This document shows, piece after piece, positions 40,553 through 63,046 of a stretch of 64,000 nucleotides of DNA. Source of the DNA: a virus (lineage: Duplodnaviria > Heunggongvirae > Uroviricota > Caudoviricetes); IMG/VR virus record IMGVR_UViG_2565956721_000002; one strand, 5' to 3'. The notes under the pieces are model-generated. The model did no database searches and was not told the DNA's origin. It saw only the letters and a list, made by a program, of their open reading frames with translations. Both the position numbers and the translations under genes were made by a program. The first letter of the stretch is position 1, and every line of letters starts with the position of its first letter.

Positions 40553-40595
40553 CCTACGAAGGTTATTTGTTACTTTCTGCGTAAACCCACAACTC

Positions 40596-40617
40596 ACCTT
40601 CCTAAGTTAAGGAAGGT
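40596..40617 (+). terminator. hairpin terminator between the mat-like gene and the cargo gene
   Basis: ACCTTCC-TAAGTTA-GGAAGGT followed by ATTTAT. Confidence 0.5.
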
Positions 40618-40649
40618 ATTTATCATGAAGTTTAGACATAAGCGTATTA

Positions 40650-41690
40650 TTACATGGGATTAACCACAACCTTTCCATATATATCAAGTTTTGATTGTAA
40701 TACGTTGAGGTGAGACAATTCTTTATTCGAACTAACTTTATCTAAAATTATATTTTTATCTTTTTCAGTCATGTTATACCCTAAGGTAATTTGCTTGAAT
40801 GCAGAAAAAGGAATTTTCTTTAAGTTAATTTCATGATAGTCATGAAAAACATCAGGATACTCATTTAATAGGCAATCATCAATCGATGGAGAGACAATGC
40901 TTCCTATTTTTCTCTCGCAATCAGCCAATGGAAAAATAATTCTACTTTCATTTTCAGGAAGCCACTCTTCACCTTTTGTATAAAGAAGCCTATTAATAAA
41001 AAGCTCGCGAACTGAATCTCGATTTAAGATCCCATGCAATGTATTATCTTTATTCTTTATATCTATATTCCTCGATGGCGCAGGATAGCCATTAAATCGC
41101 ACAGCGCCTTTATAATAGGTTACAGATGCTCTATCTTCTGGATTATAACTAACATCACACGGCCGATATATTTTGAAAAAATCGTGTGTTTCATCGAAAA
41201 CTACAGCAAACCCCTTTCCTATCGATGCATAATGAGTCCACATGTGTAGATTGCAATCACTTTTTGATAGAGAGAACACACCAAGATGACAGCTTACGGC
41301 TTCTACTAAATAATCGTTAAGGTACGTTACTATTTCTTGGAGTTTAGATTCATCATATGAATCCATTGAGGTAAAACCTTCATTGATTAACAAGTGTGGA
41401 AAATCCTCTCCGTATCGTTTCCCGCAAGGTTTTAAATAATACTCTAACTCTTGTATAGATGGGACATAAGATGGATCTCGTTGCATTTTCTTAAATTCAT
41501 TTCTAGCCCATGCGTAATCGGCTGGTGAAAATTTATTAAAAAATGGAAGAAGTCGCGACTCACTCGACGGATCATTAAGATACTTTGGTTGCGTTGCTCT
41601 AAAGAAACCATCCTCCAGACAAGATGTTCTAATGTGCATGCCCGGCCAAGGTTTATCCATATAACTCTCGCCTATATATTTAACTAACAC
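40650..41690 (-). CDS. DUF2971-like protein, AT-rich cargo gene in the slot occupied by res-mod in prototype P1
   Basis: 346 aa, GTG start is the first in-frame start; N-terminal LVKYIG...FRATQPKYLNDPSSE and central FSLSKSDCNLHMWTHYASIGKGFAVVFDE match motifs I associate with DUF2971; visibly AT-rich versus flanks; bounded by hairpins. Confidence 0.6.
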   Translation of the reverse strand: MLVKYIGESYMDKPWPGMHIRTSCLEDGFFRATQPKYLNDPSSESRLLPFFNKFSPADYAWARNEFKKMQRDPSYVPSIQELEYYLKPCGKRYGEDFPHLLINEGFTSMDSYDESKLQEIVTYLNDYLVEAVSCHLGVFSLSKSDCNLHMWTHYASIGKGFAVVFDETHDFFKIYRPCDVSYNPEDRASVTYYKGAVRFNGYPAPSRNIDIKNKDNTLHGILNRDSVRELFINRLLYTKGEEWLPENESRIIFPLADCERKIGSIVSPSIDDCLLNEYPDVFHDYHEINLKKIPFSAFKQITLGYNMTEKDKNIILDKVSSNKELSHLNVLQSKLDIYGKVVVNPM

Positions 41691-41711
41691 TGTATATCGA
41701 TCCTGTTGTTT

Positions 41712-41732
41712 AAGCCCATATCATATGGGCTT
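41712..41732. promoter_or_regulatory. perfect palindrome between lxc stop and cargo gene start
   Basis: AAGCCCATAT-C-ATATGGGCTT, about 22 bp upstream of the 41690 start; contains TATGAT; no flanking T-tract. Confidence 0.4.
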
Positions 41733-41742
41733 TAAATGATTA

Positions 41743-41991
41743 TTAATCAGCATTCAGAAGCAATGCGTTATCTATGATGATCTGCTCCCATTCTTCGAAT
41801 GCCCGATCGCGGACACCTTGGGGAACACTGTTAGTTTTGAAATCGACGACCGTCCGCCATTTCCCGTCCGGGCGGTACATGCGCAGAGCTTTACTTCCCC
41901 CTTCCCTGCGCACCTCAACGTTGTGCTTGTCAGCAAACTCTTGTAATGCTCGTAGCGTCCCATGCTTTACTGTGTAGTATCGCTTTTTCAA
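41743..41991 (-). CDS. lxc: small protein at the P1 lxc position
   Basis: 82 aa, last gene of the darB-ulx-lxc arrangement; 4-nt overlap with upstream gene; named by position and size only. Confidence 0.5.
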   Translation of the reverse strand: MKKRYYTVKHGTLRALQEFADKHNVEVRREGGSKALRMYRPDGKWRTVVDFKTNSVPQGVRDRAFEEWEQIIIDNALLLNAD

Positions 41992-42428
41992 GTTTTCTCT
42001 CCAGCCTGTGCTAAGGCTTCAACTTCCAAATCGTAAGACTCAAACTCATAGTCCTGGTCGTCAACCTCTTCAGGTACTGGCAGTAAATGCCAGGCTGAGT
42101 ATATCTGACCATTATCAAAACGCTCCTGGCTGTAGAGCGTCGCAGCTATGAGTGTCAGCGCCGGGCGGTCATAACGGTAAATTTTGCGAACGTCACGGTC
42201 AACGAGACGACCGAAATTACCATAACCGCGCTCCAGTAATAATTTTTTAATTTCCGGCCAGTATGGGCCATAGCTGCGGTACAGGCGGGGATTTTTCAGT
42301 AATCGCCCGCGTAGCCCTGACAGGAAGAAATCAACGTATTCGTCTTCTGTCTTTCCTAACAACGCTGTACGGAGTACCGCCTCAAGATATGTTTTATTCG
42401 GTTTTATTGTATCAGATAGTGTGGCCAT
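41988..42428 (-). CDS. ulx: protein at the P1 ulx position
   Basis: 146 aa immediately downstream of darB on the same strand; named by position and size only. Confidence 0.5.
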   Translation of the reverse strand: MATLSDTIKPNKTYLEAVLRTALLGKTEDEYVDFFLSGLRGRLLKNPRLYRSYGPYWPEIKKLLLERGYGNFGRLVDRDVRKIYRYDRPALTLIAATLYSQERFDNGQIYSAWHLLPVPEEVDDQDYEFESYDLEVEALAQAGEKT

Positions 42429-42461
42429 ATTATGCGACGCCCGGCGAACCGGGCGCTCCTG

Positions 42462-45400
42462 TTATGCGTATTGTTGGATGACGGCCAGAACGTCCGCCAC
42501 GTTGTGTTTTGTCTCGATAATCCACCAGTTACCCGGGAAATCGCTGTTCTTCGCCTTCGCTGGCAGCCAGCGAGCGCCGAATTTCGCCTTGATTGCGTCT
42601 TTCGCACGGAAAAGAACGCCTTTCATGCCTGAGGCTTCCTGAAGCCCAAATACCTCGCCAGCGGCGAATTTTGGTGCGTACATCATCTTCAGGTCGGCGG
42701 TGGATACGCGATAATTCAGACCAAGAGACTGAGCTATGCTGGTGGCATCACCCTGTATTGATGATAACTCTTCTTGTTTCTCGTTTCTGGCGGCAATTTC
42801 TTCCTCCGTGATGTTGCCAAGGGCCAGGTTTATCCGATCAGCGTCGGCCTGTTTCTCTTCATCGGTGCGCCCGGCAAGAACCGTGTTAATTCTCTGCAAT
42901 ATCTCCACATGATTCTTGCGCATGCTGAGCAATTCCGGCGTAACCTCGTTAAGATCCACCAGCCCAAGGATGGCAAGGTCGGAAAACATTGATACCAGGT
43001 TGTAGGTCATGCGATAGCTGAGTTGGCCATAGGCTGATGGCAACTGCACCGCATCCATTTGATAGGCATCCATAAATTTAGAGCCGTCGTTTACGACATC
43101 CGCAATTGCAGGTGTGATTTTCCCTGTGGTGGCGGCCTCCCTGATTGCTGTTACCCATGATTGAGTCAGTGCGGCGACTGCATGATTCAGATTGGCTTCC
43201 CGTTCTGCTGCGATGCGCGCGCTTGCTGAGTCCATTGCCTGCTTGATCTCGGCTTTATTGCTGTAAATGCCAATGGTGCCAAACTGTGCTGTGGTGATCT
43301 CATAATCTGACGCCCGGAACTCATGGGTACCGAAAATGGCATTGGTGACCTCAAGTTCAGAATCCCCGTTACGAGTAGCCCCCTGGCTTGCTTTCTCCGG
43401 CATTTTTGCGATCGCATCCGCTATTTTCTCCTGAATTGCTTCAGGGGATAGCGTATCTCCGTATGACGCGATTACATCGCCATAATTGGAGCCAAACAAT
43501 TCAACCAGGAATGTTTCTGCCGAACGGATCTGGCGGTTATTCCCTTCCGACATCATACCAAGCACCCATTTTGCAATTGACGACTTCAGCGCGCCGTCAC
43601 GGCGATCCGGGTAAACCGCATGCTTCAGTGGGGCCGTATAGGAACCAACAAAATCAATGCTATAGCCTGACTCTGTAGTCTGAACGCCGTATGAGTCAGT
43701 GATTTTGATCATGCCGCGCTGCTGGAAACGGTAGAAATCGTCACAGGAAATGATGTCGTTAATCCCGGCGATGGAGACGCCACCACTGATTTTCTGCATA
43801 ACAGCATCTTCATCGGGAGTTACATCAACCTGTTTATCCAGCGTCTTCACATCCCAGTTACCCGATTTGGTGCCTTTGAAGGTAAAGATGATCTCCACGT
43901 CTGCGCGCTGGCTGTCGAAGTCCAGCGACTTAATGCGAACGATATCACCGGCACAATCATAGTATTGGCCTACACGCCATGAGCGATCGCCGATAACAAG
44001 GAACTCATTCGCATGGTTAACCAGATCAGGATCAACATCCAGAATGCCTTTATTTATTGCATCCTCCACCAGCGGGCGCAGGCGTTTGATATCCGTCGCG
44101 GCCTTCTGAGTACGGTTCAATAATTTCTCATAGCGGGAGATGGCCTGAGAGATATTAGCCTTGCGCTGAATGGCGCTTTTCAACGACGCGCGATACTGTG
44201 CTAACAACATACGGTCTGTGTGATGGACGCTACCCCAGCGGGCTTTCCAGTCTGCGTTATCAGCTGCTTTGGCCATTACCGCCTGTTTGAATTTGGCGAC
44301 GTCGGCGGTGGTCTTTTCAAGTTCCGCTTTGCTTCGCTCCAATTCAGCGGTAAGTACCTCCACATCCTCACCAGCTGCGTGCTGCGCCTTGATGTAGTTC
44401 TGAAGGTCGATAGTAGCCTGTTCTTTCTGGCGAGCGCGTTTCGCAGCTTTCGCCTTATCCATTTGAACCTGCATCATTACCAGACGTTCGCCGTCATCCT
44501 TCGCGGTATACATCTGCATTTCGATCATGTCATTGGCGTCGGCGTTCTCCATTTCTGACTTATCTGAACGGAGGATATCGGAGATCCAGCCTGCTTTACG
44601 CTTCAGCGTCTTCAGTCGGTATTCATCGAAAGACCCCTTGCCGCAGTAGTAGTGAACGCGAACGCTTGCACGGTTGGAGCCAACTCGTGCACCGCGACCG
44701 TTACGTTGTGCGATACTGGCTGGTGTCCACGGCAACGTCAGGTGGTGGATATCCGTCGTTCCTCGATGCAGGTTGATACCCACCTCTGCCTTTTTGTTGC
44801 AGATGATGATCGGAGTCCGGCCCTCCTGGAAGTCGGCAGCAATCTTTTCCAGCCCACCCAGCGACATTTCATTTTGCTGCGCGATATAGGCGTCATACAG
44901 AGCCATTTGCTCGTTGTATTTCGCTATCTGTGCATCTGTTGGTTCATCCGGTAGCTCTTTCGGCGGTTTAACCGCTTTCAGTTTCTTACCGGTTTTACCT
45001 GCCTCGGCAACCGTCTGAGCATTCAGGATCCCCACCTTTGAAGGTTCAAGGTTAAGAGCATTGCAGATAATGCGCTTGAGCTTCTGGTGTTGCGTTTTTT
45101 CATCGGTGAAGATGATTTGCTTACCTTCCGGGAAAAACTCCTTCAGCGTGGCAATCAGCTTCGCGTATTTGGGCGTAACGGGGTGAGTTACGGTCTGTTC
45201 GTCAATGCCAAACTTGGCCAGGCGCTTATTCACTTCCTGCTCAAATGCTTCCGGTACCTGCAACTGAATAAACTCGCCCTTATCTATCAGGGAGTATTGC
45301 GATTGCTGCGTGATCGAATCATCACTGTCGTCGTCTTCGCTGGTGGCTTGTTTAGGCAAACTGTCCGCCAGCTGCTGCACCGCATCGGCGTACTCCGGCA

Positions 45401-48400
45401 GGAAACGATAGGTGATCCTGCGATAGTACAGGTCCATGTCAGTACATACGCGGTCCATATCCCTGATTATTGAGAAGATCGGACGGGCTTTCTCGTGCTC
45501 AATCACGCCGTCTTCATTGACCGAGGTCGTTACGCCATTGTTGGCTTTGGCTGCCGCTTCCGCCTGCTGACGCAATTCTTCATACGCCGCCAGTTGTTCT
45601 TCCGTAAGTGGTGCATCCTGCTGGTGTTCGTCCAGTTCCGGGATCTCCACGGTATCCTTAACGTCTTCCGCCGTTTTAAGCGTTGTCCAGCGATGGAATA
45701 TGCCGCGCAGCGCATCAAGGTTTTCAAAGCCCACCAGCGCCATTTTTTCTTCAACTTCACCGCTGATTTTCTGTACCGTTTCCAGCCTGGTCTTGCCGAA
45801 GAATTTAACGAAGTCATCAGGACCGTAGATCCCCATCTTCTGCCAGTATTCCTTCGGCAGCACATGAGAAAGCATGTTGTATGCATCGATCGGGGTGTTA
45901 ACGACTGGCGTTGCAGTCAGGAGAACCGGTCCGCGCCCACCATTCTTTTTCATCAGGTACGCGTTTTTAATTGCCATATCCCGCGCCGATTGCGCCACCG
46001 CGCTGGTGGGCAGATAGGCCAGTTGTGACGCTTCGCGACCATTTTTATAGCTATTGCGGTAGTTGTGACCTTCGTCAGCGATCACACTATCGAAGCCCAT
46101 ATCCTCAAAGTACGGATACTTCTCTGCTTTTTCGGTGCCGGTATCTGAATACTCCGACAATACCCGGCGACGCGCGGCCTCTTTGCGGTGGGAGTCGGAG
46201 TCCATTGCGCTGGCTACGCGCCCGGCGGCAACGAAGTCATAAAGCATATCCTGTGCATGCTCATCTACGGTGTCATCACGTAGCGGAATGCGGGCGTATT
46301 GTTCTTTGGTAAACACGACTGCACGGTAATTTGAGTGCGGGATCGCGTTCATCCGCGCCGTGATAGTGGCTTCATCTGCCAGTTTTAGGGCATCGCGCAT
46401 AACTGGAGTGCCATCAGTACCAAGAACAGGTTTACCGTTCTCATCGAGCACCGGCACCTGGCGAATCTGATCGCCATCCATCAGCACATCAAGACCGACG
46501 AACAGGTAGTTACTGAATGCCTCTTCACTCAGGAATTCTTTTGCTTCGTAATACCAGTTTTCCAGCACTGATTTAGGCACTACATACGCAGTACGGGTGG
46601 AGCGACCGTTCTCATAGTTGAACGCCTCAAGCGCCAGCGCGGTCGTAGTTTTACCCAGCCCGGTGCCGAAGCCCAGGATGCCGCGCCCATCTTCGGACAG
46701 TCGGCGCACTTCGCTATTCTGGTAATCAAATGGCTGGCGCTTACCGCTTAATCCCTTCAACCCAAGCGGATCGCCAGAGTGTTCATACGGGATATTGCTA
46801 TTGAACACATCGTTGTATTTGGCAACCAGTTCATCGTAGCGATCGTGCGTCTTGATCCACTTATTGAACTGGTCCTCAAGCAGTGCCATCTGCTCGCGGT
46901 AGCCGTTCGCCGTCGCGCTATCTTTGCCACCGATACGCGCACCATTGAGATACTTTTCCAGCTGTGCCGGGAACCCGGTCGCGTTTTCACCTGATTTACG
47001 GTCCCACTCGTAGCGGATCTCGCCTGTTTCTTTATCCTTGCGCTGGACGACACCGTATCGGTGCCCGACGAACAGGCCATCACCACCGTGATAGGTGTCA
47101 GAAACCATTTCGTCGCCTTCCAGCTGCACTGACTGCACATAGCGCAGATCCGGATAGCCCTTTTCCTGCAAAAACTCCAGAATGACGGAACGGTCGAACC
47201 AACGGCTATTGAGCTTAAACCGGATATTCTCTGCTGGCGTCTTGATGCGCTTCTCTTCGATCGCTGCCAGCTGATTAAGGACGTTGTTCTTTACTGGACC
47301 GTCGGGGAGCGTGGCGAGGAATTCCTGTTTTGGAGCCACTATCTCGTTAATGTCGCCGCTGGTGGCGCGGGCGAACGGAACAATCCCGCCATACGGTGAA
47401 ACCGCAATACCAGGAGTGCTGGCCAATAAATTAAGCAACTCTTCATCACTGGCTGGCAATTCGCCGGTAAACGCAAGGCGGAAATCATCGAGCTGGATTG
47501 GATCGCGGGTAAGATCGCTATAGAGATAACGCAGGGTGTCCTGATAGCTGGTGGAGTCATAACTGGCGCTGGAATCATGCGTAACCAGCTTTCCTGTCAG
47601 CTCGTCAGAAATAGTGCCATCCAGCTTAATTGCACCACGGAAAGCAAACCAGGCGCGCGCACCGCTTCCCGATAATTTAGCTATCGGACCGCGACCAGGG
47701 TTACCAAAACGGTCAATCTCTGCCTGCAAACGGGATACCAGAGAAAGGCGCTGCTGTTCGATTTGTTCAGCACTATGCCCGGCGGCCTTCATATCCTGAT
47801 ATTCAATTAACATCCGGCCAATCATCGCCCCACGATACAAGCGTTCACGGTATTTTTCAGGCTGGCTGTTAATCCAGTCCACCAGCTGCACCATATCGTC
47901 GCTGATTGATGTGGTGTACTTATCGCGGACATTTGCCATCTGGGTAAATGTCATACCGAGACGGCCTTCTGTTGTAGTCAGGTTACGCTGAAGAGCCTCC
48001 CAGCTATCCGCGCCATAACTGGCAGCATCAATTTTAAGTTCCTTCCCGGCATCAGCTTCAATCCAGCGACCACCAGCATATTTTTGCCATACGCCATTAA
48101 TCAGGCGCATTTCCCCTTCACCAACAACGTCTGCGGTCAGTGACGGTTCAGCCATATCGAGCAAAGACCAGTCGATACGGCTTTCGAAACGATGAATCAG
48201 CTTCGCTTTAAGAGCCTGGTTATCAATCTGACCGTCGGCACGAACCTCAATACGCCCCTGGAAGCCCTTTTCCTGGGTGCCATGAACAAACCGGCGGCCA
48301 TCCTTTTCAAACCACTTGCCAGAAATAAACGTTGGCCAAAGCACATTTGCCGATTCAAGAGTGCTTTCATCCACCAGGGGGATTTTCTCAGCCATCTCTG

Positions 48401-49229: not shown

Positions 49230-49240
49230 TGGTAATCCTT

Positions 49241-49261
49241 AACAAGTGACTAGTGTTAAAT
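49241..49261 (+). promoter_or_regulatory. putative late-promoter motif (AACAAGTGACTAGTGTTAAAT)
   Basis: 44 nt upstream of prt in the divergent darB/prt intergenic region; shares core with the tail-operon and lyz upstream motifs. Confidence 0.4.
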
Positions 49262-49295
49262 TCCGTTCAAACACGATGCGAATTATTCTAATTAA

Positions 49296-52026
<2,731 letters not shown>

Positions 52027-52070: not shown

Positions 52071-52325
52071 TTATCGCCTTCGTCTGCGTGCCATATATTT
52101 TCGCACCGCGCGACGTGGGCAATCTGAAGCGGTTTCTTTCTGCTGCATCAATCTTGCAGCCATGCTCAAAAATGTCAGGCACAGCCGAAGCCCGGCATAT
52201 AATAGCGGTTCCAGTGGCCACGTCTCATTGAGCACATATACCGCCATGAAAATCGAGTCGAAAACTATCGCCGCCAGCGATAACTTCATTGTCGAAAGTC
52301 GGCGGAGCTGCCGGAGTTTATTCAT
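52071..52325 (-). CDS. small hydrophobic/basic protein downstream of lyz
   Basis: 84 aa; ATG overlaps lyz stop; hydrophobic core and RRRRR C-terminus; ends at the terminator hairpin. Confidence 0.35.
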   Translation of the reverse strand: MNKLRQLRRLSTMKLSLAAIVFDSIFMAVYVLNETWPLEPLLYAGLRLCLTFLSMAARLMQQKETASDCPRRAVRKYMARRRRR

Positions 52326-54523: not shown

Positions 54524-55610
54524 TCGTATACAGAATGAATCTGCCTGGTTAGCACTGATAGAACGGTATAAAGACAATTGGGAACTGGCAGCAAAAGAGT
54601 TGCTTGATATTGAGTTAACACCTCATCAAGCAAAAATTATTAACGCGATAAAGAACACCGGAGCCAAAGTCACTGCCACCACACCACATGGTATTGGGGA
54701 AACCTCTATTGTGGCAGTGATTAGCATCCTGCAAACAATACTGTATTCGTGTTCCCGTACAGTGGTTGTTTCTCCTGCGATTAACGATAGTCGAAAAACA
54801 ATAATTGACTATATGTTCCGTTATTGGGAGCGAGTTACCCAAAAACACCCTTTTCTTGGCAATTATTTCAGAATACACCCTGACAAAGGGTTGGTGCATA
54901 TCAGTGAAACATGGGGATGCGTCTATATAACCTATTGTCTGAATAACGAAGAGTCTCTGGCTGGTTTTACTGGACCGCACGATCTTTTCATCGTTATTAA
55001 CTCGGCGGAAATCAGCGATCGCGCTCATGCAGTGATAACTGGCAATTTAACCAATTATGACTCGCGCCTGCTGTTGCTGTCGAAACCATCGGAACGCGAG
55101 AAAGGGTACTTTTATGATTCGCATCACCGGTTGGCCCATAGTAAAAACAATCCTGCTGGTTTTTTCACGGCGATAACTCTAAACACAGAGGATTCACCTC
55201 TCGTTTCTGAAGCATATCTTGAATTCAAAGCCAAAGAGTTTGGTGGGCGCAATAGCGATGAATATCGCCGATTGATCTTGGGGAAATTTCCCGGGATTCG
55301 GGAGTTGATGGAAAAGTCATCTGTTCCCCGTAATATGCACTTCACAATGACTGACGGTAGTAAATGGGTAGTGCCTACGATCGTGATCGCCAAACACCAT
55401 GCGAAACATCACGCTCAAAAACACAACTCCAGCACATTAGACTGGCTGAAGGCCTATACAATACCGTTATTCTCGGCAAACCATAACGCTATAGCTGAAT
55501 GGGCTAAACAAATCCCCTGGCAGGATGTGGCTGAAGAGGCATTTGTCGAAAAACCACCAAGAGATTTGCACGAGCACTGTTGGCTGACATCAGAAAAAAG
55601 CTTCTCGTGA
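54516..55610 (+). CDS. PacB-like terminase ATPase-domain paralog (shorter than PacB)
   Basis: 364 aa, GTG start with GAGGTGG RBS; alignable by eye to the PacB N-terminal half (Walker A TATTPHGIGETS; YFYDSHHRLAHSKNNPAGFFTAITLNTEDSPLVSEAYLEFKAKEFGG versus Pac[48 protein letters not shown]); lacks PacB C-terminal third. Confidence 0.6.
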   Translation: MINRIQNESAWLALIERYKDNWELAAKELLDIELTPHQAKIINAIKNTGAKVTATTPHGIGETSIVAVISILQTILYSCSRTVVVSPAINDSRKTIIDYMFRYWERVTQKHPFLGNYFRIHPDKGLVHISETWGCVYITYCLNNEESLAGFTGPHDLFIVINSAEISDRAHAVITGNLTNYDSRLLLLSKPSEREKGYFYDSHHRLAHSKNNPAGFFTAITLNTEDSPLVSEAYLEFKAKEFGGRNSDEYRRLILGKFPGIRELMEKSSVPRNMHFTMTDGSKWVVPTIVIAKHHAKHHAQKHNSSTLDWLKAYTIPLFSANHNAIAEWAKQIPWQDVAEEAFVEKPPRDLHEHCWLTSEKSFS

Positions 55611-55641
55611 GGTAAAAATCCCGCCGATTGGCGGGATTTCT

Positions 55642-55950
55642 TCAATATACGATCTGGTCTACATGATCACCAAAATCATCGTCGTCGTCCTCATCGCCAC
55701 CATCTACTGCTGGCCAATCAACAAACCAGCCAGCGTAAAGATGCAGCGTTCGGAGAACATCACTTGCGGGAGCATCAAGGGTGTTAACGAATCCCATATA
55801 GCTATTGGGATTTGCCCCAGCTATGGCTTCAGCGATCATGTCCTCGGTAATGTCACCGGAGATAATGCTTAAACGCCCGGAAACTTCTTCATTATCATCA
55901 AATTCGATAATGGCATCTCCGCCTAATGGCGCTGCGATTTTAATCTGCAT
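55642..55950 (-). CDS. small acidic protein, last gene of the Dar operon
   Basis: 102 aa with poly-Asp C-terminus. Confidence 0.45.
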   Translation of the reverse strand: MQIKIAAPLGGDAIIEFDDNEEVSGRLSIISGDITEDMIAEAIAGANPNSYMGFVNTLDAPASDVLRTLHLYAGWFVDWPAVDGGDEDDDDDFGDHVDQIVY

Positions 55951-58927
55951 TATTTAGCTCCTTTGCCACACCTAATAACAGTTCCAGCAATCCGTCACCA
56001 TTCATCAGTGATGCGGCAGCGGCCTCTTTGTCATGATACAACTGAAGAGCCATAGAGAATACTTCCGTTGCTGACGTTTTGGAAATAGTCGGTGATTTCT
56101 GCCGAATTTTCCCGGTGTTACTTACTGAGGCTGGCGGGTATACCTTCGCCATATAAATATTACTCAATCGAGATCTGAAGCACCATTCAGGCTTGCCACG
56201 CCCACCGATATTGACGAAAGATGGCTTATCCCCTTCAACATTGGCCTTCAGGAATGACCGGGCTTTCTCTAACAAACCAGGGTTACTGTACTCAAGATGA
56301 TGACCCAGCTCGTGCCACAGTGCACTTGCATTTTCATCGTTCAAATTGACAGCAACAACACCATTTAGATTTGCATATGCCCTTCCCTGGTGGTGAACCA
56401 CTTTTGATAAGGTCGATATTTTCCCGCCGGTCAGGCGATAAATATCAGCAAGTTCCTTGCGCAGGTCTATCCCACCATTCTGTCCAGCGCGGGCTTCTTC
56501 CACTTCTTCCGTGATAAAAGAGTCGGCCCACTCAAGAGCTTTTTCTTCAGATACGGATGAGTTTGCGATCGCACTGTTCATGGCAGATAACACTTTCTCG
56601 TGGACCGAACCCATACTTCGCTGATTCATTTGCCAGCGTGTCTGCGGGTTATATGAGAATCGCTTAAGTAGTTGGTCAAGCTGCTCAAGTTCTTCTTCAC
56701 TGACATACTTTTTAGCCTCACCAATAATGCCAGGGAGAATATTGCCGTTAGGATTAAACGCTCGCGACAGGAAGAGTTTCAGCGCCCCCATGCCCTCCGA
56801 TGCTTCAATATCACCAATAACCCGGTTAACAATGGCCGCACTCTTCGGATTAGCATCCGCCAACGCTCTGGCTACGATTTGCAGGGACGATACGACCTCA
56901 CGCTGCATATCAGTCCTGATCTCATCAATAAACTCTGGCGTTATGCCGTGCTCTTTAAGGATATCCCGGCCTTCCGCCGTTACCCCATCGATATCACCGA
57001 CATGTTTATTAACACGACTTTGCAATGCCTTAAATGCCTTCAGAATTCCACGGGCATCATCCGCTTTACTAACGGCCTTCCTGAATGCTGGCAAGAAGTC
57101 TGAGTTAACCTCATTTTGTTGATCGGCCCACTGAATGGAGGCTTCTTTCATCTCGTCCAGAGTCAGATCACCCAACGCGGTATGGTCTGTGAATATGAGC
57201 GACAACCTCTGAACCATTTCTGCCAATGGTGATGCCGAATGCGCCGCGCTAAGGAATGCTTTCACCCTGGTTGGGCGAATGGAAAACCAGTCAATAGCTG
57301 GTGGCATATCTCCGTTTTTTATCGCCTGCGCTATCTCGTCAAAGCCATCGCGCCCAAGGGAGGATGCGTGATTTAACAAGCCGCGAAGTAACGAATTGCT
57401 GATACCGAATAATCGGCACCATTTTTTCACGTCGGCAACAGGCATTCGAACAAAATGCGCAAGCACTTGTACAAGCTGTTCATCCTGGGGATCTGTGCGG
57501 GAAAGCAGCCTGATCAGATGAATAATGTCTTTGATGCCGGATGCCCGATGTAATAGCAAACTGGTATACGGAGCAACACCGTTGTAACTACCGCCGGAAA
57601 CGGACTCGAAAAGACCGCCGGATATCCCTTGCATGCCTTCGTTTTCCAGTTCCTGAGACACCTGGCGAAGGATATCCTGTAACGACACATCGCCGCCGCC
57701 AAACATATCCCCCAGCGCCTGGCCCTGGTGCTGTAACTCATCATTGATACGTTGAGCCATCAACTTAAAGGCGGTGGCCATACGCTTCGCGCTACGGTTA
57801 TTCGCGACGATGAACAACGCGAGTGCTTTCACTTCCGGGGCCGTTTCGCTGAACATATCCCCCTGAGCAATAACATCGGTAATATGCTGGCCTGACTCCT
57901 TCGATTGCCTTACCAGGTCTACCGCATCTTTCAATGCCGCCAGCGCCTTTTTATCGAGGCTATCCGCTGTCTCAATGCCATCAACAATAGTTGTCACAGC
58001 CTGCTTGTGCGCTTCTCCTGATAAAGCCTGCATCTGGACAAAATCATTGGCTGCCGCATTAAGCGCCGTCAGAACATTACGCATATCCGGATCAGGTTCT
58101 TCTGCAACCATCCTTACCAGGCGCGCATCCTTATATGCCTTGGCAAAGATCGCGTTTTGTATACGGTCTACAAGTTGCCGTGTTGGTCGCCCATCTTCAG
58201 TTACAAGGCCAGCCGCCTGTGTGGCACCAACTTGCGTCATGAATCCGCGAATAAACGCGTCATTACTGCGGCTAAGCAGATCTCCGCTTTCTGACGGATT
58301 AAACAGCGCCATCATCGCCGGTGTTATGCTGTCGGCATCAACAAAAGCCTTTTCACTGGCTGCCATTTCCTGAAGATCAGAAATATTTGAGTCCTTGGCA
58401 AACTGAACGCGGTCAACCTTAGTTAACCGGCGGCGCACCAGTACCGGAGCCGTCATTGATTCAACCTTTTCAGGAGGTATGCCGAATTCGGTCGCATGTT
58501 CAATCAGGTACTCACGATACCGATCCGCATTGCCGTCCTGATAGGCTTTGATGATCCCCATAGTCCGTCCATTACCTGACTCAACGGCATTGTCCTCACC
58601 AATTATCGGCGCGCCATGGCTGGATAAACCGGAATCGGTAAGCTGAGCAGGCCGCAAATCTTTGGATATCTGGTTAACCTGAAGAAGGCTGGATGCGCGG
58701 GTCCGGTCGCGCGGCTGAAGTTCCTGGGGATAGTCAGGATTAATTTTCCCATCCAGAGTATTGGATATCAAAAGAGCTGAGGCATCGACGATATCAAACG
58801 CTGTTTTTACCTCGTCTCCCTTCGCTGTCACCACATACGAAACCCGCCCATAATCGGGCAGGTTCTTTAGCAGCTCGATCAGCGTTTCTATGCTGGTGGC
58901 CATTACCACCTGATCGCTTAAGCTCAT
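55940..58927 (-). CDS. ddrB: large Dar-operon protein (P1 DdrB position)
   Basis: 995 aa immediately downstream of ddrA/darA on the same strand; named by synteny and size. Confidence 0.5.
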   Translation of the reverse strand: MSLSDQVVMATSIETLIELLKNLPDYGRVSYVVTAKGDEVKTAFDIVDASALLISNTLDGKINPDYPQELQPRDRTRASSLLQVNQISKDLRPAQLTDSGLSSHGAPIIGEDNAVESGNGRTMGIIKAYQDGNADRYREYLIEHATEFGIPPEKVESMTAPVLVRRRLTKVDRVQFAKDSNISDLQEMAASEKAFVDADSITPAMMALFNPSESGDLLSRSNDAFIRGFMTQVGATQAAGLVTEDGRPTRQLVDRIQNAIFAKAYKDARLVRMVAEEPDPDMRNVLTALNAAANDFVQMQALSGEAHKQAVTTIVDGIETADSLDKKALAALKDAVDLVRQSKESGQHITDVIAQGDMFSETAPEVKALALFIVANNRSAKRMATAFKLMAQRINDELQHQGQALGDMFGGGDVSLQDILRQVSQELENEGMQGISGGLFESVSGGSYNGVAPYTSLLLHRASGIKDIIHLIRLLSRTDPQDEQLVQVLAHFVRMPVADVKKWCRLFGISNSLLRGLLNHASSLGRDGFDEIAQAIKNGDMPPAIDWFSIRPTRVKAFLSAAHSASPLAEMVQRLSLIFTDHTALGDLTLDEMKEASIQWADQQNEVNSDFLPAFRKAVSKADDARGILKAFKALQSRVNKHVGDIDGVTAEGRDILKEHGITPEFIDEIRTDMQREVVSSLQIVARALADANPKSAAIVNRVIGDIEASEGMGALKLFLSRAFNPNGNILPGIIGEAKKYVSEEELEQLDQLLKRFSYNPQTRWQMNQRSMGSVHEKVLSAMNSAIANSSVSEEKALEWADSFITEEVEEARAGQNGGIDLRKELADIYRLTGGKISTLSKVVHHQGRAYANLNGVVAVNLNDENASALWHELGHHLEYSNPGLLEKARSFLKANVEGDKPSFVNIGGRGKPEWCFRSRLSNIYMAKVYPPASVSNTGKIRQKSPTISKTSATEVFSMALQLYHDKEAAAASLMNGDGLLELLLGVAKELNNAD

Positions 58928-58939
58928 CCCTGTTACGCC

Positions 58940-59305
58940 TTATGCTGCCTCTTTAATGTTGGCGGCTATCCATGCCGCCGTGTGCTGTTTAACCTGGTCC
59001 AGGTCGATGTATGTGCCAACATATTGACTCAAATCCTGCAAGGTACCGATAAATGCATCGGTGCTCTGATCGACGAATTTATCAGCCAGGAAATCAGCAA
59101 CCAGTTTTGGCACACCATCATGTACCGAAGGTTGTTTTTCCTCGCCACTACTGCCGCCGGACACACCGTACCCCATCTGTTGCATGATCTGGTCAATTTC
59201 ATCGCTGATATCCAGCAACTCCATGCCACTCGCGGTAGCCGCTTTGGACATCAGAGCATCCAACTTATCGCTGAGATCCATTAACTCAATAGCTGATAGT
59301 GTCAT
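58940..59305 (-). CDS. ddrA: Dar-operon protein (P1 DdrA position)
   Basis: 121 aa, acidic; 4-nt overlap with darA stop; named by synteny. Confidence 0.5.
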   Translation of the reverse strand: MTLSAIELMDLSDKLDALMSKAATASGMELLDISDEIDQIMQQMGYGVSGGSSGEEKQPSVHDGVPKLVADFLADKFVDQSTDAFIGTLQDLSQYVGTYIDLDQVKQHTAAWIAANIKEAA

Positions 59306-61221
59306 GCCGCTACCCCCGCTTTCTGGATTGCTACCAACAGATCAGCCAGGTGGCGAGCTGCGCCGTTAACCAGCTCTTCGTTTTCCTCAAAACGTCCGGC
59401 AGCCTGAAGGGCTGCAATCGCTTCCCGGACATTGCCCCGGGCGTTACGGATCTCCGCCATGTCAGTGCTTTGTATATCCATCACGTTATTGAGATATTCA
59501 ATGGCTTTATTAGCCTCTGCATCTGCTTCGCTAACCGTTTCATCAGGCTGTGCCGGGGCCGGTTCTGGCTGAGTAATCTCACCGACTTCGGCCTGCAATG
59601 CATTGATCATGCTCTGCACCATTTTCTCGGTGCCAGCGCCCCCAGGAAACGCAATATTGGAGAAAGTTTTTTGAAACTGAGTTTTCAGCATTACGCGGAA
59701 CTCGTCTGGTGAGCTGGTGGCCAGCTCCAGAGCTTTTTGTGCATATTTGCCAAACGGACCATTAGTAAGTGTCTTCGCCAGGAAGTCGAAAGAATCCTCG
59801 CGAGGCAATAACTTCAGGTCGTACTCACTCATTTGCTGATCAGAAAGCGGGGTATCGTAAGTAGCAATGCCGTAGCGTGCATATTCATAATACGGGTCAC
59901 CTTCATCAGGGCGCGGCAGAATTGCTTTGTTACCTTCAGGTATTGCGCCAGGGGCCGCCGGACGCATTTGCAGGGCATATCGATATGCACCTACAGAGAC
60001 TTCTGGTTCAGGCGAAGAGCTACCGGTATCCTCCGCTGGTTCAGGTTCGACGTTTTCCGGTTTATGTTCTTCTGGTTGGACCAGGTATTCCGATACATTA
60101 CCCGCTTTATAGGCTTTAAACAGCTTGCCGATCGCATCTGCCATGTCCACACCCTGTATGGATTTAGCCTTGATCATGTATACGCTGCCATCCGGATCGG
60201 TTAACTGGATATACCCTTCGCCGCCCCCAATGAATTGCTTCATTGATGCACCATTACTGAGCGTCACTTCCCCGTCCATATGCATACGATTTTTGATACT
60301 GGCAAGGCGATCCGTCAGCGCGCGAGAGTGCCCACCAGTCATCCCCGCTGGAGCAATGGTACCGCGCCCACCAGTGCGATTGAGCTGATCAATCTCCGTC
60401 TGCAAACGCTCATTCTCTTCATAAAGAGAATCCGCTTCCGATGCAACAGCGTTAATTTTCTGCTCCAGATCTGCCTTCTGCCCTTCTACCGCTGCCACCT
60501 GATCCGCGAGGTCGCTCATGGCATCCTCTTTCTGGTCACTGTCAGCCTGTAGTTGGGTTATTTCATCAACAAGGGCTTTTTTCTTCTTCTGCGCACGCTG
60601 GAATTTTGCCGAGTTTTTCTCTGCAAGGTTGGCAAGTTTCATGGTGACCTGCGCCAGCGTCATATCACGTCCACTCATCGGAGCAACGGTGTGAGTAACG
60701 TCTTTTTTATTCAGTAAGAACTGGAAAGCAACCAGCGTATCGCTATTGGTGATCCGGTTTTCCGCTGTCGGGCTATGAAACAGAATGCTGATAGTCTGAC
60801 CATCACTGAGCGGAATAATGGCTGGCAAGACCGGCAGCCCGTTAACGTTACGTGCCCGGCCAATTTCAGCGCCGCCGATCGCGCGCGCGCCGCTCTGGGC
60901 CACATCCCCCGTTTTATCACTCCCCGCAGAGATTCCGGTACCATTCAGCTTCTGGTTCAATGCCCGGACAAATGCCTGCATGGTCCGGTGTAACTGCAAA
61001 CGAGTAGAACTAATCGCCTCCAGTAAATCCGTAGCACACCAGTGGATCGGCGTGTCATAGAAGAACGTAGCCTCGATTTCCTCCAGGGTGTTGGATTCCG
61101 TCATCAGATAGCGGTCCTCACCGGCCATTAATGCGCGATATTCATCATCAGTCACTGGCGGGGGAAGCACGTCAAGCCCAGGCTTGATCGTCACCCCTTT
61201 ATTGATATTGAACTGTTCCAT
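59302..61221 (-). CDS. darA: antirestriction / head internal protein DarA candidate
   Basis: 639 aa (matches P1 DarA precursor size as recalled) between hdf and ddrA. Confidence 0.6.
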   Translation of the reverse strand: MEQFNINKGVTIKPGLDVLPPPVTDDEYRALMAGEDRYLMTESNTLEEIEATFFYDTPIHWCATDLLEAISSTRLQLHRTMQAFVRALNQKLNGTGISAGSDKTGDVAQSGARAIGGAEIGRARNVNGLPVLPAIIPLSDGQTISILFHSPTAENRITNSDTLVAFQFLLNKKDVTHTVAPMSGRDMTLAQVTMKLANLAEKNSAKFQRAQKKKKALVDEITQLQADSDQKEDAMSDLADQVAAVEGQKADLEQKINAVASEADSLYEENERLQTEIDQLNRTGGRGTIAPAGMTGGHSRALTDRLASIKNRMHMDGEVTLSNGASMKQFIGGGEGYIQLTDPDGSVYMIKAKSIQGVDMADAIGKLFKAYKAGNVSEYLVQPEEHKPENVEPEPAEDTGSSSPEPEVSVGAYRYALQMRPAAPGAIPEGNKAILPRPDEGDPYYEYARYGIATYDTPLSDQQMSEYDLKLLPREDSFDFLAKTLTNGPFGKYAQKALELATSSPDEFRVMLKTQFQKTFSNIAFPGGAGTEKMVQSMINALQAEVGEITQPEPAPAQPDETVSEADAEANKAIEYLNNVMDIQSTDMAEIRNARGNVREAIAALQAAGRFEENEELVNGAARHLADLLVAIQKAGVAA

Positions 61222-61222
61222 G

Positions 61223-61834
61223 TTAATTTCCTGCTTTCAGTTGCTTAAGACGGCGTTTGAGTTCGCCATTTCGGGCCTTTTCGTTATTGAGTCGGCCTGT
61301 CTCCTTATCCAGCTTCGCCCGCAAATCAGTGATCTGCTGTTGATTGAAAGACACCGAGTTCTGCGCTGATTTATAAGCGGCAACCACCTGAGCATTCCGC
61401 TGTTTTGCCTCTTGCAGGCGCTGAAAGTTGGATTTTACTGCCGGTTTCTTGTCTACCGGATTGGCAACACGTTTCGCTTTGGCGATCAGTGATTTCTGGA
61501 ATTTTGCGGAGTTTTTGCGGGCCGCTTGCCCCATGACGGTACCAAGCGTCTTGATATCCGGCGATTGAGCGTTAGGAATAGCTTTTCCATTCAGCCTCAC
61601 AGACGATATATCGCCAGTATCGTTTACCTGTATGGCAAGAATTTGTCCGTCGTTAAGAACCAGCTTTGCGGTTTTAACTTTAACGCCATCTTTCGTTGTT
61701 GCGCGGTTGCTGGAGTCAACCTCAATTACCGTAACACCGGTTTTATTGATCGCCGCGATAAGGGATTTCAGCCCCTTTTCATTAACCTGGTCAAAATCGA
61801 CCGTTGCATACTTATTTTTCGTCATCTGACACAT
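61223..61834 (-). CDS. hdf: Hdf-position protein
   Basis: 203 aa upstream of darA; basic coiled C-terminus; named by synteny. Confidence 0.5.
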   Translation of the reverse strand: MCQMTKNKYATVDFDQVNEKGLKSLIAAINKTGVTVIEVDSSNRATTKDGVKVKTAKLVLNDGQILAIQVNDTGDISSVRLNGKAIPNAQSPDIKTLGTVMGQAARKNSAKFQKSLIAKAKRVANPVDKKPAVKSNFQRLQEAKQRNAQVVAAYKSAQNSVSFNQQQITDLRAKLDKETGRLNNEKARNGELKRRLKQLKAGN

Positions 61835-62255
61835 CCTGTGCGAGATTTATTACGTAACTTCTGCGGATTTGCTGAGTAACAGGGAAAATCCGATACAACG
61901 GGTTAATGAACGAGTCGCCATGCGTAACCATGACGTTGAAATGCCACAGTCGCTCTCCTTTACCCATATATTCAGTGGGTATGTACAACCATTCACTGTT
62001 TTCGCCCTGTTCAGCCGACGTCAAACAACGTTGTTCGCCTTCAATCACTGTCGTCGGCTTCTGAACATCGCGGATCCAATATCTGACCGTTGCGCCGCGC
62101 AAAAACGGGAATTTAGACCGGTATTTGAACGGCACCCGGATGAAACCCGGTTTAATTTCCACATCACCAAGTTCTAAATGCGTGATGTCCTTGCGTTTTA
62201 GCAAATAGCGATCGGCTAAGGCTAACGCAAGAACGCATACACCCCAGCCAATCAT
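61812..62255 (-). CDS. lydB: antiholin/lysis determinant candidate
   Basis: 147 aa following the holin-like gene, as in P1 lydA-lydB. Confidence 0.5.
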   Translation of the reverse strand: MIGWGVCVLALALADRYLLKRKDITHLELGDVEIKPGFIRVPFKYRSKFPFLRGATVRYWIRDVQKPTTVIEGEQRCLTSAEQGENSEWLYIPTEYMGKGERLWHFNVMVTHGDSFINPLYRIFPVTQQIRRSYVINLAQDVSDDEK

Positions 62256-62581
62256 TTCCCGCCTCCCTTTTTCACCAAACTTGTAAGAACATTCAGAATG
62301 CTATCGATATTCACTCGTTTCATCCCTGAAATCACCTCATGACCGTTATTGCTGGCTATCGTTACCATTAAGTACGTAATTGATAACTCCCAGCCCTCGT
62401 GTTGCCCCAATAGGTACGCCACCGCGCCAGCTGTCACTGCAACAAAGATCTCCGTAACCAATCCCAACAAATTGCCAGACTGGCGACCGTCTCGGACATC
62501 CATCAGGAACGTGCCTATCCCACCAATTACTGAAAGCAGGAGCGCAATAGCAACTGGAGCTAATTCCTGTGTGTCAAGCAC
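62252..62581 (-). CDS. lydA: holin candidate
   Basis: 109 aa with two hydrophobic helices (VAIALLLSVIGGIGTFL, IFVAVTAGAVAYLLG) and charged C-terminus. Confidence 0.55.
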   Translation of the reverse strand: MLDTQELAPVAIALLLSVIGGIGTFLMDVRDGRQSGNLLGLVTEIFVAVTAGAVAYLLGQHEGWELSITYLMVTIASNNGHEVISGMKRVNIDSILNVLTSLVKKGGGK

Positions 62582-62655
62582 AAGTTCCCTCCTACGTTGT
62601 CAGGAGGTAATGGTATGCAAAGTAACTTCTCAACCGGTTATGTTGCATAAGAGAC

Positions 62656-62919
62656 TTACCTATTCAACCGACTTTTGGAACCTTCAATAATAAGCCTGCT
62701 ATTGGCGCTGAAAATAAGAACCATGCAGCTCTGAAGGCTTTCATTCATATCCTTATATTCCGCGAGATACATGCCAATAAAGCCAGCAAGTACGGCGGAA
62801 ATACATTCGGCCAGCAATTTCTTGCATGAAGACTCGTAACGGTTTTCACATAGCCCACTCAAATACGAATACACCCCACCAAGAAGGGATAACATCACGA
62901 TATGTACATAAAATGTCAT
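62656..62919 (-). CDS. small membrane protein, first gene of the lyd/dar operon
   Basis: 87 aa, two hydrophobic segments; AGGT upstream. Confidence 0.4.
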   Translation of the reverse strand: MTFYVHIVMLSLLGGVYSYLSGLCENRYESSCKKLLAECISAVLAGFIGMYLAEYKDMNESLQSCMVLIFSANSRLIIEGSKSRLNR

Positions 62920-63046
62920 TTTTTACCTATACAACAGTAAGTTGAACAACATCTGAGAACGGTATGCACTTTGTGATTTCCACACACACTGGTTTTGTTA
63001 ATTAAAACCTGTAGCTTGCAATAAATAACGATAGTGGGCAGAAAAT

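What the first reader, a model, noticed from the sequence alone, without database searches (positions are those of the whole stretch)
40560..62920. Element keeps the full Dar antirestriction apparatus but lacks its own restriction-modification genes
darB, ulx and the hdf-darA-ddrA-ddrB operon are intact, so virions should still be protected against host type I restriction. The element's own type III R-M slot is occupied by the DUF2971-like cargo and no IS1 is present at the junction. This points to selection for exchanging the defence payload while keeping counter-defence, and makes the cargo gene the main candidate for superinfection or plasmid exclusion in this lineage.
Basis: inference. Interest (0 to 1): 0.4.

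Follow-up and report, generated by a model that had tools for sequence, protein, structure and literature searches.

The report
P1-type phage-plasmid with swapped defence cassette
This is an ordinary P1-family phage-plasmid: it keeps the anti-restriction (Dar) genes found throughout the family, and a known variable slot that holds a restriction system in phage P1 holds here a common single-gene cassette (DUF2971) that probably blocks other phages.

Summary
All six Dar genes (ulx, darB, hdf, darA, ddrA, ddrB) are full length and 96-99% identical to P1. The 64-kb window has no res, mod or IS1 homologue. The mat-lxc slot holds one gene for a DUF2971 protein.

The pattern is not unusual and has been published. 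The res-mod locus is a described variable region of P1-like plasmids, and a large survey found Dar in every P1/D6 element it examined. In my own sample of 73 P1-like loci the slot carried about eleven payload types or was empty. These included a SIR2-like gene (14), DUF2971 (10), type III R-M (9) and CapRel (8, including the validated CapRel-SJ46); seven slots were empty. The identical DUF2971 cassette is in 87 PLSDB plasmids.

The cargo matches PADLOC candidate PDC-S31 and shares its Pfam domain with Aristaios, a validated lactococcal abortive-infection protein. It keeps a conserved ExE motif and weakly resembles DarT ADP-ribosyltransferases. It is a reasonable but untested anti-phage candidate. 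Nothing supports a role in plasmid exclusion.

About 30 kb of the replicon is unseen. Of two DUF2971-carrying relatives, one was checked completely and the other over the part matching the unseen stretch; neither has R-M genes there.

The parts
39911..40552 (+). mat (213-aa form). Its last 118 bp (40435-40552) belong to the exchanged cassette and are diverged from every other payload class.
   Evidence: tblastn to P1 Mat. Homology break at 40434. Cassette-specific mat tails. phrog_1837 matched over 1-212.
40435..41742 (.). Exchanged cassette of 1308 bp and about 40% GC. It replaces P1 res-mod (P1 coordinates 3351-9749).
   Evidence: blastn against P1. GC 0.40 against about 0.48-0.52 in the flanks. 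Identical cassette in 87 PLSDB plasmids and 60 E. coli genomes.
40596..40617 (.). Hairpin between the convergent mat and cargo genes; terminator-like.
   Evidence: Terminator scan.
40650..41690 (-). DUF2971 / PDC-S31 cargo gene. The ORF runs from a GTG at 41690 (346 aa). The start annotated in CP083412.1 and NZ_CP195974.1-type records corresponds to the ATG at 41660 (336 aa).
41743..41991 (-). lxc (bof), a modulator of C1. It forms the right border of the slot.
   Evidence: 100% identical to P1 Lxc over 82/82 aa.
41988..42428 (-). ulx (Dar component). It contains the P1lxc-P3lxc promoter sequences; P1lxc and P2lxc are identical to P1.
   Evidence: 98.6% to P1 Ulx. phrog_1629, Ulx-like anti-restriction. 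Promoter comparison.
42462..49229 (-). darB (methyltransferase-helicase, Dar component).
   Evidence: 2255/2255 aa at 98.7% to P1 DarB.
55940..58927 (-). ddrB
   Evidence: 995/995 aa at 98.9%.
58940..59305 (-). ddrA
   Evidence: 121/121 aa at 95.9%.
59302..61221 (-). darA
   Evidence: 639/639 aa at 98.3%.
61223..61834 (-). hdf. The start equivalent to P1's is at 61825.
   Evidence: 200/200 aa at 98.5%.
61812..62919 (-). lydB, lydA and lydC, lysis genes at the head of the dar operon.
   Evidence: LydB 98.6%, LydA 100%, LydC 67% over residues 6-78.
53735..55610 (+). isaA plus a 364-aa ORF (54516-55610) at the locus where P1 has isaA-IS1-isaB. No IS1 is present here.
   Evidence: IsaA 94.7%; no InsA or IsaB hit. 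Non-P1 segment 54525-55643. phrog_5902. No Pfam or PADLOC hit.

Best explanation
The window is a P1-family (Punavirus) phage-plasmid, and the region is its standard cre-ref-mat / lxc-ulx-darB / prt-pro / dar-operon block.

The six Dar proteins belong to the conserved late/virion gene set, so their presence is expected in any functional P1-like virion. By near-identity to P1 they should be packaged, co-injected with the DNA, and protect it from type I restriction (inferred).

The short interval between the convergent genes mat and lxc is a known variable region (RD-1). Alternative cassettes are exchanged there by homologous recombination in the conserved flanks. The left crossover zone lies inside the 3' end of mat and the right edge is the lxc stop codon.

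In this element the cassette is a 1.3-kb, low-GC, single-gene unit encoding a DUF2971 protein (PADLOC candidate PDC-S31). The most likely function (inferred) is a self-contained abortive-infection type anti-phage protein. It would be an ADP-ribosyltransferase-like enzyme with a conserved Tyr and ExE motif, kept inactive in the lysogen. It would be expressed by read-through from the lxc promoters or from a weak P2mod-like promoter. Infection by another phage would switch it on, and it would then modify a nucleic acid or a transcription component.

No R-M system is encoded in the 64 kb, and there is probably none on the replicon.
For: Identity of the element: 81% of the window aligns to P1 at 94-99% identity, and all Dar proteins are full length.

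Hotspot behaviour: 73 IMG/VR P1-like loci showed about eleven payload classes plus empty slots. Homology to the window always ended at 40434 and resumed at 41739-41747, and each class had its own mat tail. The payloads include validated defences: EcoP1I-type R-M and CapRel-SJ46 (L061 is phage SJ46; PMC9712102). They also include defence-like SIR2, PIN and JukA genes.

Mosaicism: window 1-23991 is 100.0% identical to pEC-16-35-3, which carries type III R-M in the slot, whereas 34000-51357 is only 98.2-98.5% identical to that plasmid.

The cargo:
- It matches Pfam DUF2971 and PDC-S31.
- It is the only long ORF in the cassette.
- Y144, E236 and E238 are invariant in 46 homologues, which fits the Y/ExE motif described for DUF2971 (PMC12522546).
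- Aristaios, a 316-aa DUF2971 protein, is an experimentally shown single-gene Abi that affects phage transcription (PMC11381338, PMC13064643).
- Homologues of about 50% identity sit after the tail-fibre genes at the edge of a Serratia prophage, and in a Klebsiella islet next to an AAA_21 ATPase.

Absence of R-M:
- No Res or Mod hit in the window.
- None of the ORFs scanned in the non-P1 segments gave a restriction-endonuclease or PADLOC hit; the only such hits in the window were to the P1-homologous orphan methyltransferase dmt and weak LmuB-like hits to pmgS.
- The complete relative CP083412.1 has no res/mod by annotation or tblastn, and NZ_CP195974.1 has none in bases 1-48000, the only part read, which covers the stretch the window lacks.
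Against: The anti-phage role of this DUF2971 protein is untested, and sequence relatedness to Aristaios itself was not measured.

No consensus sigma-70 promoter was found upstream of the cargo, so expression in the lysogen is assumed rather than shown.

Several payloads at the same slot (GNAT, AraC+EAL, a lipoprotein) are not obviously defence genes, so location alone does not prove defence.

About 30 kb of the replicon (tail fibres to repA/par) is not in the window.
Confidence: 0.8

Rival explanations
1. An R-M system is present, but elsewhere on the same replicon, in the roughly 30 kb not covered by the window. The element would then not really lack restriction.
For: P1-like plasmids can acquire R-M at other variable regions. 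pSvP1, for example, carries a type I R-M in the pmg region (PMC6906374), and PrrC/type I systems are reported on P1-like elements. The window ends at the invertase gene, so the tail-fibre to repA stretch is unseen.
Against: The pmg/RD-5 equivalent lies inside the window (22102-29812) and its scanned ORFs gave no R-M hit. The DUF2971-bearing relative CP083412.1 has no R-M gene anywhere, and NZ_CP195974.1 has none in bases 1-48000, which cover the stretch corresponding to the unseen part. tblastn with Res and Mod was negative against both sequences as fetched.
Confidence: 0.07
2. The DUF2971 gene is not an anti-phage defence. It would be a moron with some other role, such as a toxin or effector, a host-physiology modifier or a plasmid-stability function, or simply a neutral hitch-hiker in a recombination-prone AT-rich gap.
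For: The same slot also carries GNAT, AraC+EAL and lipoprotein genes with no defence signature. About 18% of DUF2971 proteins were predicted to be secreted effectors (PMC12522546). PDC-S31 is only a candidate in PADLOC. No promoter was detected. The fold evidence is weak.
Against: A DUF2971 protein has been shown to act as a single-gene Abi. Two validated defences (type III R-M and CapRel-SJ46) and SIR2, PIN and JukA genes occupy the same slot. A homologue sits at the edge of a Serratia prophage, directly after its tail-fibre genes. The gene is intact and 99-100% conserved in its cluster of 839 sequences. The catalytic-type residues are invariant.
Confidence: 0.25
3. The element is a decaying, non-infectious plasmid remnant. 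Intact Dar genes would then say nothing about virion protection.
For: P1-like elements often lose phage functions (PMC10879196). The invertase region is rearranged, with a cin fragment plus a divergent invertase on the other strand. The tail-fibre region is unseen.
Against: Every P1 late, head, tail, packaging and lysis gene that falls in the window is present as a full-length ORF at 94-100% identity. The same invertase arrangement occurs in phage vB_EcoM-813R1, which is deposited in GenBank as a phage genome.
Confidence: 0.08

Closest known systems
Phage P1 / P7 (Punavirus) and the published variable region RD-1 (res-mod) of P1-like phage-plasmids (Venturini 2019, PMC6906374; PMC9603915)
   Same: The backbone, gene order and Dar genes are the same at 96-100% protein identity. 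The slot boundaries match too (P1 3469-9749 in the paper; 3351-9749 here). As in pJIE250-3, pSvP1 and pTZ20_1P, res-mod and IS1 are absent and other ORFs take their place.
   Different: The payload is a DUF2971 gene rather than EcoP1I or EcoP7I. The last 39 codons of mat are cassette-specific.
CapRel-SJ46, the fused toxin-antitoxin defence of the P1-like phage SJ46 (Zhang 2022, PMC9712102)
   Same: It occupies the same mat-lxc slot of a P1-like phage-plasmid as a single-gene cassette of about 1.3 kb. It is an example of a self-contained enzyme with a fused regulatory domain that causes abortive infection.
   Different: The protein family is unrelated (RelA/SpoT pyrophosphokinase against DUF2971). 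It lies in the opposite orientation, co-directional with mat. Its function is proven, whereas the DUF2971 cassette is untested.
Aristaios (Lactococcus plasmid single-gene Abi, 316 aa, DUF2971; PMC11381338) and PADLOC candidate PDC-S31
   Same: Both have the DUF2971 Pfam domain, a single-gene layout and similar size (336 against 316 aa), are carried on a mobile element, and have a predicted ADP-ribosyltransferase-like fold.
   Different: The host phylum differs. Direct sequence similarity to Aristaios was not measured. No phenotype is known for the enterobacterial protein.
DarT of DarTG (ssDNA thymidine ADP-ribosyltransferase)
   Different: There is no DarG macrodomain partner and no DarT Pfam match. 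The cargo has large helical inserts and an extra C-terminal domain of about 90 aa. The similarity is below the usual significance level.

Membership tests
P1 Dar anti-restriction system | All six components are encoded: Hdf, DarA, DdrA, DdrB, DarB and Ulx (PMC12810830). | tested here: met
   Full-length tblastn matches at 95.9-98.9% identity, each in an uninterrupted ORF.
P1 Dar anti-restriction system | P1 gene organisation: the lydA-lydB-hdf-darA-ddrA-ddrB-hxr operon, and darB-ulx-lxc next to prt. | tested here: met
   The order and strands match the P1 annotation. The PdarB, P1lxc and P2lxc promoter sequences are identical to P1.
P1 Dar anti-restriction system | The proteins are packaged in the capsid, co-injected, and protect DNA from EcoK/EcoB/EcoA type I restriction. 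| not testable with these tools
   Inferred only, from near-identity to the experimentally studied P1 proteins.
Type III R-M (EcoP1I / EcoP7I) | res and mod genes are present. | tested here: not met
   No tblastn hit at E<=1e-3 in the 64 kb. The positive control against P1 gave 99-100%. The slot holds 1308 bp with one unrelated ORF.
Any R-M system on the element | A restriction endonuclease paired with a methyltransferase. | tested here: inconclusive
   No endonuclease hit among the ORFs scanned in the non-P1 segments. Only the orphan methyltransferase dmt and darB carry methyltransferase domains. About 30 kb of the replicon is unseen. The DUF2971-bearing relative CP083412.1 has none anywhere, and NZ_CP195974.1 has none in bases 1-48000, the only part read.
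DUF2971 (PF11185) / PADLOC PDC-S31 | A match to the family profile above threshold. | tested here: met
   Pfam 28.3 bits against a cut-off of 22. Four PDC-S31 models matched, best E=4e-16.
DUF2971 (PF11185) / PADLOC PDC-S31 | The conserved ART-type motifs described for the family: a strictly conserved Tyr and an ExE motif (PMC12522546). | tested here: met
   Y144, E236 and E238 are invariant and R21 is at least 90% conserved in 46 homologues of 35-52% identity. Which residue belongs to which motif was not confirmed by structural superposition.
Aristaios-type single-gene Abi | A stand-alone DUF2971 gene on a mobile element with an ADP-ribosyltransferase-like fold. | tested here: inconclusive
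   [not shown]
Aristaios-type single-gene Abi | Confers phage resistance with an abortive-infection phenotype. | not testable with these tools
   Needs phage-challenge experiments.
DarTG toxin-antitoxin | A DarT toxin with an adjacent DarG macrodomain antitoxin. | tested here: not met
   No second ORF lies on the coding strand of the cassette. No DarT or macrodomain Pfam hit.

The most novel reading that the evidence does not exclude
The enterobacterial DUF2971 cassette would be an autonomous, single-polypeptide ADP-ribosyltransferase-type immune sensor-effector. An N-terminal ART-like catalytic core would be held off by its own C-terminal domain of about 90 aa until a phage product binds, as the fused antitoxin does in CapRel at the same slot. 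The cassette-specific C-terminal tails of Mat would then be more than recombination scars and would be functionally matched to the neighbouring cargo.
Probability: 0.15. Interest if true: 0.5.

Novelty: already known. Interest (0 to 1): 0.18.

Why it matters
As a finding it mainly confirms known biology. P1-like phage-plasmids keep Dar and shuffle what sits in the res-mod slot.

Three things are of practical value:
1. The mat-lxc gap is a compact, sharply bounded place to look for new single-gene defences in Enterobacteriaceae. It already contains two validated systems.
2. The DUF2971/PDC-S31 cassette is in about 13% of P1-like plasmids in PLSDB, including the CTX-M-15-carrying plasmid of S. 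Typhi, yet it has no assigned function in enterobacteria. It is a cheap and well-defined target for a phage-challenge test.
3. Lysogens of this type should not impose EcoP1I restriction, which matters when P1-like elements are used or encountered in transduction and phage-therapy work.

Tried and rejected
- Source record. The exact record was not found. The best matches were CP083412.1 (99.5% over 39001-64000) and NZ_CP093228.1 (100.0% over 1-23991), so the replicon is a mosaic and its unseen part cannot be read.
- Searches with the cargo that found nothing: NCBIfam, an HMM profile against PDB sequences at E<=10, Foldseek against PDB (best E 0.5) and Foldseek against BFVD viral structures.
- The afdb50 library was not available.
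- A literature search for 'PDC-S31' found no papers.
- A promoter scan of the slot found no consensus sigma-70 promoter upstream of the cargo. The P2mod-equivalent hexamers are ACGCAT/TAATAA, comparable in quality to P1's but not convincing.
- I looked for other defence genes in the window's non-P1 segments (3539-3964, 6799-7894, 22102-29812, 54525-55643). Among the ORFs scanned there were no PADLOC hits. The only PADLOC hits in the window were to two P1-homologous genes, the orphan methyltransferase dmt and, weakly, pmgS (LmuB-like coiled coil).
- I considered a clean, recent cassette swap on an otherwise identical backbone and rejected it. The flanks differ by about 1.5-1.8% from the R-M-bearing plasmid whose other 24 kb is identical, so the exchanged tract is larger than the cassette.
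- I considered DarTG membership and rejected it, because there is no DarG partner.
Full report
**What the window is.** The window is a P1-family phage-plasmid. Megablast of 37000-50000 and 49000-64000 hits phage P1, P7, RCS47, SJ46 and many 'Punavirus' records at 97-99% identity. A blastn against P1 covers 51.8 of the 64 kb at 94-99% identity.

Using the P1 annotation and a tblastn of P1 proteins, the region of the finding reads as follows:
- mat 39911-40552 (+)
- a 336/346-aa ORF 40650-41660/41690 (-)
- lxc 41743-41991 (-), ulx 41988-42428 (-), darB 42462-49229 (-)
- prt 49305-51014 (+), pro 51007-52026 (+)
- lyz 52318-52875 (-), ssb 53044-53532 (+)
- isaA 53735-54523 (+), a 364-aa ORF 54516-55610 (+)
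- hxr 55642-55950 (-), ddrB 55940-58927 (-), ddrA 58940-59305 (-), darA 59302-61221 (-), hdf 61223-61834 (-)
- lydB, lydA and lydC up to 62919 (-)

**Check of the observation.**
- Dar genes. All six Dar components named in the literature (DarA, DarB, DdrA, DdrB, Hdf, Ulx; PMC12810830) are full length and 95.9-98.9% identical to P1. The PdarB, P1lxc and P2lxc promoter sequences are identical to P1.
- R-M and IS1. P1 Res, Mod (rebuilt by removing the IS5), IS1 InsA and IsaB give no tblastn hit in the window at E<=1e-3. The same queries find P1 itself at 99-100%.
- The slot. The ORF in the slot matches Pfam DUF2971 above the gathering threshold. DNA homology with P1 ends at 40434, which is 118 bp before the mat stop codon, and resumes exactly at the lxc stop codon, 41743.

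The observation therefore stands. The remark about IS1 does not bear on the slot. P1's IS1 lies between isaA and isaB, about 10 kb away, and the insertion in the sequenced P1 mod gene is an IS5.

**Is R-M really missing?** Within the window, the only segments that are not P1-like are 3539-3964, 6799-7894, 22102-29812, 30628-30877, the cassette itself, 54525-55643 and 63224-63399.

The ORFs I scanned in these segments gave SPFH/Band-7, Ead/Ea22 and DUF551 hits, or nothing, and none gave a PADLOC hit. The only PADLOC hits in the window were to two P1-homologous genes: the orphan C5+Dam methyltransferase dmt, and weak coiled-coil (LmuB-like) matches to pmgS.

The window lacks the stretch from the tail fibres to repA/par, which is about 30 kb in P1. 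I could not find the source record. In the closest complete DUF2971-bearing relative, CP083412.1 (S. Typhi ph681355, 99.5% over 25 kb), no R-M gene is annotated anywhere and tblastn with Res and Mod is negative. For a second, NZ_CP195974.1, I read bases 1-48000, which cover the stretch corresponding to the unseen part; no R-M gene is annotated there and tblastn is negative. I put the chance of a hidden R-M system at about 7%.

**What the slot is.** I fetched 80 P1-like loci from IMG/VR using Ulx as the query and measured the interval between lxc and mat. The 73 resolvable loci, annotated with Pfam and PADLOC, fall into these classes:

| Payload | Loci |
|---|---|
| SIR2-like (PDC-S25/ThsA-like) | 14 |
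| DUF2971 | 10 (plus one truncated) |
| Type III R-M | 9 (5 EcoP1I-identical, 4 with a different Mod) |
| CapRel (PDC-S33; includes L061, which is phage SJ46 itself) | 8 |
| GNAT | 8 |
| Empty (35-45 bp with a hairpin) | 7 |
| PIN_12 | 5 |
| JukA + KilAC/ORF6N + HTH | 4 |
| AraC + EAL | 3 |
| YaaC-like + deoxyribosyltransferase-like | 2 |
| Lipoprotein | 2 |

In almost every class, homology with the window ends at 40434 and resumes at 41739-47. Each class carries its own diverged version of the last 39 or so codons of mat. The full 2255-aa darB ORF is present in at least one locus of every payload class, including all seven empty ones, and in 59 of 72 loci overall. The shorter ORFs include loci whose upstream flank was cut short (for example L023 and L039).

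In PLSDB, 670-699 plasmids carry lxc-ulx. Of these, 87 carry this exact cassette and at most 108 carry an EcoP1I-type res. Among complete E. coli genomes, 60 of 564 with the flanks carry the cassette.

The window itself is a mosaic. Bases 1-23991 are 100.0% identical to pEC-16-35-3, which has type III R-M in the slot, while 34000-51357 is only 98.2-98.5% identical to that plasmid. Exchange therefore happens by homologous recombination of tracts larger than the cassette.

**What is already published.**
- Venturini et al. 2019 (PMC6906374) defined res-mod as hotspot RD-1 (P1 3469-9749) and isaA-IS1-isaB as RD-2. Both were replaced by other ORFs in three P1-like plasmids, with the antirestriction block between them conserved.
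- PMC9603915 lists res-mod as variable region 1 in 54 P1-like elements.
- A 2025 preprint on 1,592 P1/D6 sequences reports that the Dar-Ddr system was 'present in every sequence'. Complete defence systems (type III R-M, dGTPase, PrrC, CapRel) were found in only 28-56% of elements, depending on the host.
- DarA and Hdf are also required for head morphogenesis, which is a second reason for their retention.

**The cargo.**
- Family. The 336-aa protein hits four PADLOC PDC-S31 models (best E=4e-16) and phrog_1762. NCBIfam found nothing.
- Relatives. Its 90% identity cluster holds 839 sequences. The next relatives are 35-54% identical proteins from Klebsiella, Serratia, Vibrio, Shewanella and others.
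- Conserved residues. In an alignment of 46 of these, T23, P25, N29, D30, E34, S130, Y144, E236, E238 and R240 are invariant and R21 is nearly so. This fits the published description of DUF2971 as an ADP-ribosyltransferase-like family with a strictly conserved Tyr and an ExE motif, closest to DarT and AbiGi (PMC12522546).
- Precedent. Aristaios, a 316-aa DUF2971 protein on a lactococcal plasmid, is an experimentally shown single-gene Abi-like system that interferes with phage transcription (PMC11381338; PMC13064643).
- Context of homologues. One homologue sits after the tail-fibre genes at the edge of a Serratia prophage next to smpB. Another lies in a small Klebsiella islet next to an AAA_21 ATPase.

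**Mechanism proposed (inferred).** The cassette would be expressed in the lysogen, either by read-through from the lxc promoters or from a weak promoter at the P2mod position. The hairpin after lxc has no T-run, and no consensus promoter was found. The protein would stay inactive until another phage infects, then ADP-ribosylate a nucleic acid or a transcription component and abort the infection. Nothing supports plasmid exclusion.

**Verdict.** The phenomenon is ordinary and already known. The one open item is the untested function of a common DUF2971 cassette.

Noticed in passing
window 40435-40552, and loci L007-L086: Every payload class at the mat-lxc slot carries its own diverged version of the last 39 or so codons of mat. 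The DUF2971-linked tail is the most divergent. Mat protein is 99-100% identical to the window's only in DUF2971-bearing loci, against 81-92% in the others.
   Followed up: partly
window 39765-39941 and 39884-40552: Relative to P1's annotated 250-aa Mat, the first 44 or so codons lie in a different frame, in a separate 58-aa ORF. The 213-aa form starting at 39911 is the one annotated in relatives, and it matches the 212-position phrog_1837 profile end to end.
   Followed up: partly
window 63047-63223 (+) and 63355-63936 (-): A 59-codon fragment is 81% identical to the N-terminus of P1 Cin. It is followed by a full-length serine invertase on the opposite strand that is only 74% identical to Cin. 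The same layout is seen in phage vB_EcoM-813R1 and in CP083412.1.
   Followed up: partly
window 1-23991 against 34000-51357: The replicon is a mosaic. The first 24 kb are 100.0% identical to pEC-16-35-3 (NZ_CP093228.1), which carries a type III R-M in the slot. The slot flanks are only 98.2-98.5% identical to that plasmid and are closest to S. Typhi ph681355 (99.5%).
   Followed up: yes
window 2813-5077: dmt is 754 aa here against 1013 aa in P1. There is an internal deletion of about 1 kb and a 426-bp replacement (3539-3964). The gene keeps an N-terminal C5-methylase region and the C-terminal Dam-type domain.
   Followed up: partly
window 6799-7894: The start of P1's tciA region and the sequence upstream of it (P1 Δres Δmod record 66447-67183) is replaced by a 275-aa SPFH/Band-7 protein (7049-7876), next to the tRNA-Met gene.
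   Followed up: partly
window 22102-29812: A 7.7-kb block has no match in the P1 reference used. It contains Ead/Ea22-like and DUF551 proteins and several small ORFs with no family hit. The ORFs scanned there gave no defence or R-M hit.
   Followed up: partly
window 54516-55610: At the locus where P1 has IS1 and isaB there is a 364-aa ORF (phrog_5902). It has a weak match to the ATPase region of large terminases and no Pfam, NCBIfam or PADLOC hit. In relatives this second variable slot carries dGTPase, MBL-fold or porin genes.
   Followed up: partly
loci L014 and L085; L050, L072 and L080; L008, L020, L027 and L028: Other payloads at the slot may be worth a look. They are a YaaC-like protein with a nucleoside-2-deoxyribosyltransferase-like protein, an AraC regulator with an EAL-domain protein, and a three-gene unit of JukA, a KilAC/ORF6N antirepressor-like protein and an HTH protein.
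   Followed up: partly
[not shown]
   Followed up: no
L093-L096 (Serratia) and L089-L092 (Klebsiella): Chromosomal homologues of the cargo (about 50% identity) sit directly after the tail-fibre genes at the edge of a prophage next to smpB, and in a small islet beside an AAA_21/AAA_15 ATPase plus a 221-aa partner.
   Followed up: partly
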